From the IMG/VR virus record IMGVR_UViG_2529293213_000030, positions 1 to 16,214 of that record: a DNA stretch of 16,214 bases; one strand, written 5' to 3'. The DNA comes from a virus (lineage: Duplodnaviria > Heunggongvirae > Uroviricota > Caudoviricetes). Numbering within the stretch: the first letter of the stretch is position 1; every line of letters begins with the position of its first letter. A program made the position numbers. Below are positions 12,001 to 15,000 of this stretch, in pieces.

Positions 12001-15000
12001 AATTAGCAGAGGGGGCGTAGTAATCCTTGTATATCGGAGTGAAGAGAAAAATGAGCGAGATCAACTATCAGGCACTGCGTGAGGCGGCAGTAGCAATTGA
12101 AACAGTAGCAACGCCTCAAAAATTGCTGGCATTTCGTATGAAAGTCACACCGTCGGTGGTACTGGCGCTGCTGGATGAACGAGATGCATTAAACGAACGC
12201 ATAGCCGAACTGGAGGCTAATTTAGCGGAGCTGGCCGAAGACCAACAGAAAGCGATTGAGTCAATTAAGCAGGCTGATGCGGCTGTTAAGTTGGCACACG
12301 AGAAGTTTTCGGTGCTGGCGGCAGAGAATGCGGAGCTTAAACAGTCGGAGAAGGAATTTAATAACTTCTGTCGTCAGGAGTACTACGGTTGGGAGGACAA
12401 CTTCACGGAAACCCCAGCCACCGACGCTTTCCTGGCTGAAATTCGTGCGGCGGCTCGCAACGAGGGTATTAACTATACCGCAAGCCGTCTTGCTGCTGCT
12501 TTCAATCACGGATTTATCAATAAGTCTTTGCGTGAAGTTTTCGACGTTACACGCATGATTTTATCAGCGAAAGAAGAGTTGGCTAATGAAGCGCATCCGA
12601 TTGATGGCCTGTCTGGTGAATATGCGGAGAAATCCCTTGAAGAATGGGCGGAACAGATTCGCAAAGGAGGAAACCAGTGAGCAAGATTGACTATCAAGAA
12701 CTTCGTGAAGCAGCAGTAGCAATTGAAACAGTAGCAACGCCTCAAAAATTGCTGGCATTTCGTATGAAAGTCACACCTCAGGTTGTGCTGGCTCTACTGG
12801 ATGAACGGGAAAGAAACCAGCAATACATCAAACGCCGCGACCAGGAGAACGAGGATATTGCGCTTACGGTAGGGAAGCTGCGCGTTGAGCTTGAAGCAGA
12901 AAAACAGCGGGCAAAAGTTCTATTTATGGAAAATGCTCGGCTTAAGTCAGGCATAGCCGGTCTGATACACCTCGGTCAATATGCAGATATTGAGGTCATG
13001 AGAATTGCTGGAGATGCCCAGCTTTCTACCCCATGCACTGACAGCATCATAAAAAGCATTGCAACAGGCATTCGCATCAAAGGAGAGTGAGATGAACGGA
13101 CAAATCTCAATTGTTCTACCGGGAGCATGTGACGATCGCGAGATACGAATGATTATTCGTCTGGCGATGGGGAAAACAATAACTGCTCTCATTACTCCAG
13201 AAAATCTCGCATTAGCATTAACCGGAAAGTCAGACCTGCCAGTAGAGCTAAAGCTGCGAAATGTTGAGATTAAGGTGAAATAGCTATGACCACTATTACC
13301 GACAAAGAGCTAATTAAAGAAATTAAAGAACATATCAGCAGTCTGGGGGGGGGCGGGACAATATTGAGCGCCGTGCTTATGAAATTGCGTTGACTGCATT
13401 GACCGCTGAACCATTCGCCACTATCGACACCGCGGGAATTGAGCTCGTTAAATATGGTTGTAACACGTTTATTTGTCCCGACAATTCGATGGATCCGGGA
13501 AATGTACCGCTATATATCGGCCTGCCACGAATTGAGCCAGCAAGCCAGACTGCCAAGCTGTCATTCCAGGAATGGTTGTCAGAACAAAAAGAAAAAATAG
13601 ACGTTGATTGCGGATGTGTAAGCATCGAAACGCTTACGCACTGGATGAAATCAGCTTATGAGGCTGGCAACTCTCCGGTAACTCCGGATGGTTGGATAAG
13701 CTGTAGTGAGCGAATGCCAGAAATGGGAGAGCGACAATGCTATGTGTTAGCAGCTGACTTTAAAAACAACTACCCACCAAACATCCCCAACACTCAGGTC
13801 GGCGTATATGGCGACTGGTTTAATGATGGCAATCCCACTTGGGATGACGGTGATGGCGAAGACCTGTATCTCAAAGAGGTAACCCACTGGATGCCTCTAC
13901 CAGAACCGCCGCAGGAGGTGAAATGATGAATTGGCCTGAAGCATTCACCGCAGTTGGAGTTGCAATAGCGGTGGCATTTATTCTGTATTCGCTTTTCCGC
14001 TGGGGATAAAGGAATGTTCGCGCTGATTCAACGTGGTCAGATATACAGAGCCGGATACCCTGTGGTGATTATTCGCAGTACTCAGCACTCAGTGTTCTTT
14101 CGACGCATGGACGGGTGCTCCGGACGGGTACGCATTGGTGAGTTCAACAACCTGTTCGAACATATTGACCAACAGGAGTACCGCAAAATTCTGGCGGGCA
14201 CTGAGCAGGAAATGCACCTGAAAAAATTACGCGCAATGCAACGGAGGTGATACATGCATACGGCTTTTGAGTTCTGGGTTCGCAAGACATTCGGCAATCG
14301 CTACGACCTGACCCGTGATGTCGACGGCTTCTACTGCCGTGAAGTTGTGAAACGAATGTTTGACGTGTGGTGCCACTGCCGTGGATGAAAGTTTTATGAG
14401 GTTGGCATGCAGACAATCATCTATCAGATAACCCCCAGCAAATGGTGTACGGAAGAGAGTCCTTATTGCATCAACAGGGCTAAAGCCCGGCACCATCGAG
14501 CGGGCCAGAAGAAAGTCATGGATGCAGGGAAAAGAATACCGCCATTACGCTGTAGAAGGTGATCCTGGGCATTACAGTGAATGCCTGTACAACATCGAAG
14601 AAATTATGCGATGGATCGAAAACCAGAAACAACCAGGTGCCAAAAATGCAAGTTCCGGTTAACCTGTTAATGCTCCTGGACGTCTGGGAGGTTTAATGAG
14701 TAACGCATCATACCCGACAGGCGTTGAAAACCATGGAGGATCACTCCGTATATGGTTTCACTATAATGGCAAACGTGTCAGAGAAAACCTCGGTGTTCCT
14801 GACACAGCCAAAAACCGGAAGATCGCTGGTGAACTTCGCACTTCCGTTTGTTTTGCAATCAGAATGGGGAGTTTCGACTACGCCGCGCAGTTCCCTAATT
14901 CCCCTAACCTGAAACACTTTGGTCTGGGAAAAAGAGAGATAACCGTTAAGGCACTTTCGGAAAAATGGTTGGACCTTAAGAAAATTGAGATAGGAAGTAA

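What the first reader, a model, noticed from the sequence alone, without database searches (positions are those of the whole stretch)
13286..13926. DUF551-family gene split by a frame change at a G9 homopolymer
The ATG-initiated frame (13286) and the long DUF551 frame (open from 13327) meet at ctgggggggggcggg (13345-13353). One extra G would give a continuous ~213-aa protein, and the downstream frame reads as protein (NIERRAYEIALTALTAEPF...) before its first possible start. This could be a homopolymer sequencing error, a true inactivating frameshift, or slipped-strand phase variation of an early-left gene.
Basis: seen in the sequence. Interest (0 to 1): 0.5.

Follow-up and report, generated by a model that had tools for sequence, protein, structure and literature searches.

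The report
Prophage gene frameshifted at unstable G-run
A non-essential early gene of a Shiga-toxin-type E. coli prophage is broken by a run of nine G's that lengthens and shortens between otherwise identical prophages; the break is real but is an ordinary kind of slippage frameshift, not a new mechanism.

Summary
G9 lies at 13345-13353. The ATG frame (13286) stops at 13391-13393 after 35 aa, and the DUF551 frame runs to 13926. One more G gives a 213-aa protein.

It is not a one-off sequencing error. The same G9 allele is in 5 complete E. coli genomes, 7 Illumina-sequenced phage records and draft assemblies.

Homologues are single in-frame genes without a run (CTGGACGTG, CTGGAGGTG, CTGGGGGTG). 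A T-to-G change made G7, which is in frame and found on at least three gene haplotypes. One derived haplotype carries G8 (off), G9 (off) and G10 (on).

G10 and G9 loci, and G10 and G8 loci, are identical over about 3.7 kb apart from the run. The run therefore changes faster than point mutations accumulate.

Off alleles dominate (about 1,000 contigs against 32 with G7 and 8 with G10). Nothing indicates programmed recoding: the slippery motif is poor, there is no downstream RNA structure, and the split is not conserved.

Best reading: a recent slippage frameshift in a hypermutable run that truncates an accessory exo-xis-region protein. It behaves like a phase-variable site, but there is no evidence that it is selected as one.

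By-product: the IS110-family element ISEc20 sits in this run in some strains and is flanked by G-runs elsewhere.

The parts
13272..13278 (+). Shine-Dalgarno-like AAGGTGA, 7 nt upstream of the true start codon of the DUF551 gene
   Evidence: Read directly from the sequence. The upstream gene's stop (TAG 13281-13283) lies 2 nt before the ATG, the tight packing typical of an operon.
13286..13393 (+). N-terminal fragment of the DUF551 gene: a 35-aa ORF. Residues 1-20 are the authentic N-terminus; everything after the G-run is out of frame. It stops at TGA 13391-13393.
   Evidence: Residues 1-20 are identical to in-frame homologues. PGAP labels the equivalent piece 'frameshifted'.
13345..13353 (+). 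G9 homopolymer, the site of the frame change. Public alleles are G7 (in frame), G8 (out), G9 (out) and G10 (in frame). The site is also an ISEc20 insertion site.
   Evidence: ISEc20.
13354..13926 (+). Remainder of the DUF551 gene in the other frame (open from 13327). It encodes residues 24-213 of the restored protein. Stop is TGA 13924-13926.
   Evidence: It is identical to the C-terminal 190 residues of the G7 and G10 proteins.
13390..13392 (+). TTG, the first canonical start in the DUF551 frame, used by PGAP for a 178-aa CDS. It overlaps the stop of the 35-aa ORF (TTGA). No Shine-Dalgarno motif precedes it. Reinitiation here is only inferred.
   Evidence: Annotation pipelines disagree on the start (178, 145, 187 and 175 aa).
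13690..13914 (+). DUF551 (PF04448) domain, residues 136-210 of the restored protein
   Evidence: Coordinates are mapped from R24 = 13354-13356.

Best explanation
This is one gene for a roughly 212-aa DUF551 protein of the pL (exo-xis / 'ea') accessory region of a yecE-type lambdoid Stx-family prophage. It is out of frame because a young homopolymer has expanded. Shown: relatives read CTG-GAC-GTG, CTG-GAG-GTG or CTG-GGG-GTG at this position. In one lineage the T is a G, giving an uninterrupted in-frame G7 (Leu-Gly-Gly-Arg). One descendant haplotype carries G8, G9 and G10. Inferred mechanism: replication slippage (slipped-strand mispairing) in the G:C run adds or removes single G's. Indel rates rise exponentially with run length, so the run became unstable once it passed 7. 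With G9, ribosomes that start at ATG 13286 read 20 authentic residues and then 15 out-of-frame ones, and stop at 13391-13393. With G8 they would stop at TGA 13365-13367. The DUF551-containing part is then either not made, or made at a low level as an N-terminally truncated protein by reinitiation at TTG 13390 or ATG 13489; this step is inferred and untested. The off state has been carried along in successful STEC clones. G10 alleles are in-frame forms with one extra glycine, and I read them as revertants. The behaviour resembles a contingency locus, but nothing indicates it was selected for switching or that recoding rescues it.
For: G9 and the two frames. Restored protein carries DUF551. Single-ORF homologues without a run (933W L0065, 207 aa; 95NR1, 203 aa; G1/2). 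G7 gives an intact 212-aa ORF in IMG/VR contig L009, with only 3 substitutions in the gene that leave the protein unchanged. Exact-sequence census: G7 protein on 32 contigs; G10 protein on 8; split products on 960 (145 aa) and 98 (178 aa); G9-specific 35-aa peptide on 70. G9 in 5 complete genomes and 7 phage records, G8 in 3 complete genomes. G9 and G8 also in draft assemblies. The phage records were sequenced by Illumina MiSeq plus Sanger, from O145:H28 ST32 clades A, C and F (among those tabulated, isolates from Japan and Belgium, 2010-2014). L019 (G10) against L020 (G9): 0 mismatches in 3,728 bp. L015 (G10) against L002 (G8): 0 mismatches in 3,732 bp. G10 occurs on both local haplotypes. 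All G8, G9 and G10 alleles share one gene haplotype, while G7 sits on three. G:C runs of 8 or more are rare: apart from this run, only five other sites (two of them in or at copies of ISEc20) in 560 kb of fetched loci, and 8-bp G:C runs are outliers in K-12, with indel rate exponential in run length (PMC8510543). No start signal for a separate downstream gene and no internal promoter-like site.
Against: No reads were available, so the run length in this particular window and any heterogeneity within a culture are unverified. Some G10 or G8 calls in draft or long-read assemblies could be homopolymer miscalls. The downstream frame has picked up no secondary lesion in any record, which fits a very recent event but also fits continued use of the gene. 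Contig counts are inflated by heavily sampled outbreak clones and may count the same contigs under different gene calls, so on:off ratios say little about selection.
Confidence: 0.75

Rival explanations
1. Adaptive phase variation. The poly-G run is a selected contingency switch that reversibly turns an exo-xis-region DUF551 protein on and off in the phage or lysogen population, for example to hedge between lysogeny and induction outcomes.
For: On (G7, G10) and off (G8, G9) alleles coexist on DNA that is identical over about 3.7 kb. G10 arises on two local haplotypes. The downstream frame remains intact in every off allele examined. Exo-xis genes are reported to modulate the lysis-lysogeny decision (PMC10834534).
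Against: The run is young and confined to one allele lineage; sister alleles lack it. Off alleles outnumber on alleles by roughly 25 to 1. All 7 uninterrupted phage records from O145:H28 ST32 have G9, and those tabulated span three clades and several years, so switching is not fast on that scale. The gene lies in the repressed pL operon, so its state has no obvious phenotype in a lysogen. No switching rate or phenotype is known.
Confidence: 0.12
2. Sequencing or assembly artefact in this window. The true length is G10 or G7 and the gene is intact.
For: Homopolymers of 9-10 are classic miscall sites. G8, G9 and G10 calls differ between otherwise identical records. The window's own source record is not among the complete genomes searched, so its sequencing platform is unknown.
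Against: G9 is reproduced in at least 12 other records from several laboratories, including 7 from Illumina MiSeq plus Sanger, and in draft assemblies, about 16 of the 25 longest contigs read. ISEc20 insertions flanked by 6+5 or 6+4 G's fit a long pre-existing run.
Confidence: 0.05
3. Programmed recoding. Full-length protein is made from G9 by -1 ribosomal frameshifting on G_GGG_GGN, or by RNA polymerase slippage that adds a G.
For: A -1 shift on GGG-GGG codons allows perfect tRNA re-pairing. Long homopolymers can cause transcriptional slippage (general knowledge; PMC1088944 for A/T runs).
Against: G_GG.G_GG.N heptamers are among the poorest -1 motifs measured in E. coli (0.018% for G_GG.G_GG.U; PMC4066793). 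The 97 nt downstream fold less well than shuffled sequence (z = +2.7). No Rfam element was found. The split arrangement is not conserved, because homologues are in frame. Documented bacterial transcriptional slippage concerns A/T runs.
Confidence: 0.03
4. Two genuine separate genes: a 35-aa peptide gene and an independent 178-aa DUF551 gene, as PGAP and DFAST annotate.
For: PGAP annotates a separate 178-aa CDS (WP_000126164.1), and DFAST annotates the 35-aa peptide. TTG 13390 overlaps the upstream stop (TTGA), an arrangement that could allow coupling.
Against: Residues 21-35 of the peptide are out-of-frame sequence with no homologue. Every relative without the run encodes one protein of 203-214 aa. 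No Shine-Dalgarno motif precedes TTG 13390 or ATG 13489. Pipelines choose four different starts.
Confidence: 0.03

Closest known systems
Homopolymer (poly-G/C) contingency loci of Neisseria, Haemophilus and Campylobacter (slipped-strand phase variation; my own knowledge)
   Same: A G-run of 7 or more lies inside the 5' part of an ORF. Changes of plus or minus one G toggle the frame. On and off lengths are both found among near-identical genomes.
   Different: The host is mismatch-repair-proficient E. coli, where such switches are not a known strategy. The run is evolutionarily young and absent from sister alleles. The gene is a repressed prophage early gene, not a surface or restriction-modification gene. 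No switching rate, phenotype or evidence of selection is available.
Frameshifted pseudogenes in (cryptic) prophages, as flagged by NCBI PGAP
   Same: PGAP already labels the 5' piece 'frameshifted; incomplete' in every complete genome that carries it.
   Different: Here the lesion is demonstrably reversible in nature (G10 alleles), and the rest of the gene is undamaged.
933W L0065 / P22 EaA-like / CPS-53 YfdS / Ea22_V2: DUF551 proteins of the exo-xis ('ea') region
   Same: Same position in the pL operon between the ead/Ea22-like genes and xis-int. Same conserved N-terminal module of about 43 aa and same C-terminal DUF551 domain.
   Different: Those genes are intact single ORFs. Their function is also unknown (PMC10834534, PMC4776307), so nothing can be said about which activity is lost here.
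Programmed -1 frameshift sites (dnaX, IS3/IS911)
   Same: Two overlapping frames joined at a run of identical bases.
   Different: The motif is poor, there is no stimulatory structure and the arrangement is not conserved.

Membership tests
Pfam DUF551 (PF04448) protein family | Match to the family HMM above the gathering threshold | tested here: met
   Restored protein: E = 9.2e-22, 78.1 bits against a cut-off of 22, residues 136-210, covering profile positions 1-68 of 68.
Pfam DUF551 (PF04448) protein family | Same full-length architecture as the lambdoid EaA/L0065-type members (conserved N-terminal module plus C-terminal DUF551) | tested here: met
   The N-terminal 43 residues are nearly invariant across 42 homologues. 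933W L0065 aligns from its ATG.
Slipped-strand phase-variable (contingency) locus | Homopolymer or short repeat run inside the ORF or promoter, long enough to slip | tested here: met
   G9 at 13345-13353, codons 20-23.
Slipped-strand phase-variable (contingency) locus | Run-length polymorphism, with both on and off lengths, among closely related genomes | tested here: met
   G7, G8, G9 and G10 occur. G10/G9 and G10/G8 pairs have 0 mismatches in about 3.7 kb.
Slipped-strand phase-variable (contingency) locus | High-frequency reversible switching within a clonal culture | not testable with these tools
   No read data. Indirectly, all 7 uninterrupted O145:H28 ST32 phage records have G9, which argues for moderate stability.
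Slipped-strand phase-variable (contingency) locus | Run maintained over evolutionary time or across lineages, implying selection for mutability | tested here: not met
   Sister alleles read GGACGTG, GGAGGTG or GGGGGTG. Runs of G8 or longer are confined to one gene haplotype.
Slipped-strand phase-variable (contingency) locus | A phenotype that differs between on and off states | not testable with these tools
   DUF551 function is unknown.
Programmed -1 ribosomal frameshift site | Efficient slippery heptamer | tested here: not met
   G_GGG_GGN belongs to the G_GG.G_GG.N class, which is at or near background in E. coli (PMC4066793).
Programmed -1 ribosomal frameshift site | Downstream stimulatory hairpin or pseudoknot | tested here: not met
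   13354-13450 folds at -15.1 kcal/mol against -22.8 for shuffles; z = +2.69.
Programmed -1 ribosomal frameshift site | Two-frame arrangement conserved in homologues | tested here: not met
   Homologues are single in-frame ORFs.

The most novel reading that the evidence does not exclude
The G-run is a working on/off switch of a Stx-family prophage early gene: a slipped-strand contingency locus in E. coli phage DNA that alters the exo-xis-region control of induction and lysogeny. The same run also serves as a landing pad for ISEc20, an IS110-family element that appears to target G-runs.
Probability: 0.12. Interest if true: 0.55.

Novelty: new member of a known kind. Interest (0 to 1): 0.3.

Why it matters
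For annotation: the '35-aa hypothetical protein' and the 145-, 175-, 178- and 187-aa 'DUF551 proteins' in hundreds of STEC assemblies are pieces of one gene whose state depends on a single unstable run. They should be called as one frameshifted gene.

For phage biology: the locus provides natural isogenic on and off alleles (G7 and G10 against G8 and G9) of an uncharacterised exo-xis-region protein in clinically important Stx prophages. These could be used to find out what DUF551 proteins do.

For mutation biology: it is a clean natural example of a homopolymer becoming hypermutable after one base substitution completes the run, in a mismatch-repair-proficient enterobacterium.

None of this is mechanistically new.

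Tried and rejected
1. Structure route. An AlphaFold2 model of the restored protein, built from a 42-sequence alignment, gave mean pLDDT 43 and pTM 0.27. That is too poor for a fold search, so none was run.

2. A scan of JGI metagenome contigs for the run-spanning pattern found nothing.

3. Rfam searches of 12900-14700 and of the ISEc20 copy found nothing.

4. The promoter and terminator scan of 12900-14100 found no sites. This argues against an internal promoter for the downstream piece.

5. The whole window could not be matched to a source record among complete E. coli genomes (best hit 90% coverage at 97.9% identity). The platform used for this particular sequence therefore remains unknown.

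6. I looked for a SNP shared by the G10 loci L017-L019 that would show they form a clade. There is none; they are identical to G9 locus L020 apart from one private SNP. Inherited G10 cannot be separated from repeated events or miscalls.

7. I considered that the run might be an ISEc20 excision scar. I rejected this as unnecessary: G7 alleles exist on several IS-free haplotypes, and a single T-to-G change explains the run.

I worked around this through a homologue search.

9. A literature search for ISEc20 found no paper that looked relevant from its title or abstract; none was opened.

Full report
**1. What is in the sequence**

The window reads ...CATATCAGCAGTCT-GGGGGGGGG-CGGGACAATATTGAG..., with nine G's at 13345-13353.

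An ATG at 13286 is preceded by AAGGTGA (13272-13278) and lies 2 nt after the stop of the upstream 63-aa gene. It opens a 35-aa ORF, MTTITDKELIKEIKEHISSLGGGGTILSAVLMKLR*, which ends at TGA 13391-13393.

The frame one base back is open from 13327 to TGA 13924-13926. It reads ...GGGRDNIERRAYEIALTALTAEPF.... Its first canonical start is TTG 13390, which has no Shine-Dalgarno motif.

One added G joins the two frames into a 213-aa protein. Pfam DUF551 matches residues 136-210 (window 13690-13914) with E = 9e-22.

G-runs of 8 or more are expected 0.17 times in a window of this composition.

**2. Context**

The gene lies on the + strand in a run of small genes: DUF4752, two ead/Ea22-like genes, a 63-aa gene, this gene, DUF4222, a 44-aa gene, xisR, and a tyrosine integrase at 14696-15982. 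This is the pL 'exo-xis / ea' accessory region of a lambdoid prophage.

Near-identical regions belong to Stx1a, Stx2a and non-Stx prophages integrated at yecE in STEC O145:H28, O111 and other strains.

The exact source of the window is not among the complete RefSeq E. coli genomes searched.

**3. It is one gene, not two**

Phage 933W L0065 ('similar to EaA of P22', 207 aa) is a single ORF that aligns from the same ATG. So are the homologues in strain 95NR1 (203 aa) and in hundreds of other E. coli contigs (203-214 aa).

At the position of the run they read:
- CTG-GAC-GTG-CGA-GAT in 933W
- CTG-GAG-GTG-CGG-GAC in G1/2
- CTG-GGG-GTG-CGG-GAC in 95NR1, TL-2011a and five IMG/VR contigs

The first 43 or so residues form a nearly invariant module, MTTxTDKELIKEIKERIxSLxVRDNIERRAYEIAL..AEP. 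It is shared by DUF551 proteins with different middle sections. The frameshift sits inside this module.

Annotation pipelines disagree about the 'downstream gene'. They, 187 or 175 aa, some with TTG or ATT starts. That is what one expects when there is no real start site.

**4. The run is real and its length is polymorphic**

The table gives the alleles found in public sequence.

| Run | Frame | Where found |
|---|---|---|
| G7 | in frame | IMG/VR contig L009: intact 212-aa ORF, 3 substitutions in the gene that leave the protein unchanged. The exact 212-aa protein is on 32 contigs. G7 also occurs on two further gene haplotypes (L067; L068-L071). |
| G8 | out of frame | 3 complete genomes, plus draft assemblies |
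| G9 | out of frame | 5 complete genomes, 7 phage records, draft assemblies (about 16 of the 25 longest contigs read). The G9-specific 35-aa peptide is annotated on 70 contigs. |
| G10 | in frame | The exact 213-aa protein is on 8 contigs, of which 5 loci were read. |
| G13 | in frame | Not found |

The split products dominate: the 145-aa call is on 960 contigs and the 178-aa call on 98. These counts are inflated by clonal sampling and may overlap.

The seven phage records come from Nakamura et al. 2021 (PMC8112680). That study sequenced long-PCR products on Illumina MiSeq and closed gaps by Sanger sequencing. The strains belong to O145:H28 ST32 clades A, C and F; among those tabulated, isolates came from Japan and Belgium, 2010-2014.

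G9 is therefore not a long-read artefact, and it is stably inherited within that clone.

**5. The run changes faster than point mutations accumulate**

- L019 (G10) and L020 (G9) have no mismatch in 3,728 bp. Only the run differs.
- L015 (G10) and L002 (G8) have no mismatch in 3,732 bp. Only a 2-nt difference in the run separates them.
- L017 (G10) equals L020 over 3.9 kb apart from the run.
- G10 occurs on both local haplotypes, which are distinguished by a 6-bp indel in the neighbouring DUF4222 gene. One haplotype otherwise carries G9 and the other G8.
- Within the gene, all G8, G9 and G10 alleles share one haplotype, whereas G7 sits on three slightly diverged ones.

The simplest history is this. 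GGGGGTG became G7 by one transversion. G7 was fairly stable and stayed in frame. It then expanded in one lineage to G8 and G9, with continuing changes of plus or minus one G, including occasional in-frame G10.

This agrees with the finding that indel rates rise exponentially with homopolymer length, and that 8-bp G:C runs are already outliers in E. coli K-12 (PMC8510543). Apart from this run, the 560 kb of loci fetched here contain G:C runs of 8 or more at only five other sites, two of them in or at copies of ISEc20.

**6. What it does, and what is not shown**

With G9, translation from 13286 gives a 35-aa peptide. With G8 it would stop at TGA 13365-13367.

The stop codon in the G9 state overlaps TTG 13390 (TTGA). 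Some termination-reinitiation giving a 178-aa protein that lacks the conserved N-terminal module is therefore conceivable. This is inference only.

Programmed recoding is unlikely for four reasons:
- G_GG.G_GG.N heptamers are at or near background for -1 frameshifting in E. coli (PMC4066793).
- The downstream 97 nt are less structured than shuffled sequence.
- There is no Rfam hit.
- The arrangement is not conserved in homologues.

There is no internal promoter-like or terminator-like site.

The function of DUF551 is unknown. It is described as a portable domain found in Ea22 variant 2, YfdS and EaA-like proteins of the exo-xis region, a region that modulates the lysis-lysogeny decision (PMC10834534, PMC4776307). 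A structure prediction was too poor to help.

**7. Is it phase variation?**

In form it is. A run inside an ORF has on and off lengths that interconvert among near-identical genomes.

In the stricter sense of a selected contingency locus, there is no support:
- The run is young and limited to one allele lineage.
- Off alleles greatly outnumber on alleles.
- All seven uninterrupted O145:H28 phage records carry the same length, G9.
- The gene is in a repressed operon in lysogens.

I rate this reading at about 0.12. Passive, recent slippage damage to a dispensable gene I rate at about 0.75.

**8. By-product: ISEc20**

In Stx1_EH1995, Stx1_EH1992 and O145:H28 strain 12E115, the IS110-family element ISEc20 is inserted inside this very run. 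The junctions read CTGGGGGG | IS | GGGG(G)CGGGAC.

Extracting the flanks of other copies gave 23 flank pairs in Shigella flexneri, E. coli and IMG/VR prophage contigs:
- In 16 of the 23, the left flank ends in G4-G7.
- In 6 of the 23, the left flank ends in TAACG, which resembles the element's own right end.
- In all 38 rows listed (36 insertion contexts besides the two in this run), the right flank starts with G. It often reads GGGG-CGG.
- None of the other sites is a DUF551 gene.

ISEc20 therefore appears to target G-runs, and the expanded run created a new target for it. I did not identify the element's guide RNA.

**9. Verdict**

The finding is real and correctly described. It is explained by an ordinary mechanism and is partly already flagged by PGAP as 'frameshifted'. 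It is a new example of a known kind, of modest interest. Its main uses are to correct annotation and to provide natural on and off alleles for studying DUF551.

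Noticed in passing
L008:1046-2504 and L022 (window-equivalent 13345-13353); also L025-L066: ISEc20 (IS110 family, about 1,449 bp) is inserted inside the DUF551 G-run in Stx1_EH1995, Stx1_EH1992 and O145:H28 strain 12E115. In 16 of 23 flank pairs the left flank ends in G4-G7, and every right flank starts with G, often GGGGCGG. The element seems to target G-runs. A guide (bridge) RNA was not identified, and there was no Rfam hit.
   Followed up: partly
window 13923-14009 (+): An ORF of 28 aa (MMNWPEAFTAVGVAIAVAFILYSLFRWG) is not annotated. It has one hydrophobic helix and a strong AGGAGGT Shine-Dalgarno motif at 13913-13919, and it overlaps the DUF551 stop (ATGATGA). The ORF stays open in L009. 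It is probably a small membrane peptide gene that PGAP missed.
   Followed up: no
window 12027-12680 and 12644-13090 (+): Two adjacent, overlapping ead/Ea22-like genes share an almost identical N-terminal segment (..REAAVAIETVATPQKLLAFRMKVTP..). The second gene varies between strains (130, 137, 138 or 148 aa, or truncated). This is a mosaic, recombining pair.
   Followed up: no
window 14044/14045, in the DUF4222 gene 14014-14250: A 6-bp indel (ACACGG; protein of 78 or 80 aa) defines two local haplotypes. The haplotype without the insert otherwise carries G9 and the one with it carries G8. G10 occurs on both.
   Followed up: partly
L007 (phage TL-2011a, JQ011316), about window-equivalent 13409; L006 (strain 95NR1): TL-2011a has the run-free GGGGGTG allele but a different one-base insertion (GCTGGAACC in place of GCTGAACC) that also splits the gene; this could be an independent frameshift or an old sequencing error. 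In 95NR1 the ORF is intact (203 aa), yet PGAP annotates it as a partial pseudogene plus a 136-aa CDS.
   Followed up: partly
P0027 (13 contigs); L022:2865 region: Where ISEc20 interrupts the run and the right half is G4, PGAP calls a 200-aa hybrid ORF (MIRGTNKVTGRDNIERR...). It starts at an ATT inside the IS end and reads into the DUF551 frame. This is probably an annotation artefact, though read-out from the IS end is possible.
   Followed up: no
L017:8762 onward, compared with L020: The same early region and integrase sit at two different chromosomal or prophage sites: yecE in L015, L016 and L020, and next to NleG and IpaB_EvcA-family (Pfam) genes in L017. This fits the 'prophage integrating into prophage' (PPompW attB) system described in PMC8112680.
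   Followed up: no
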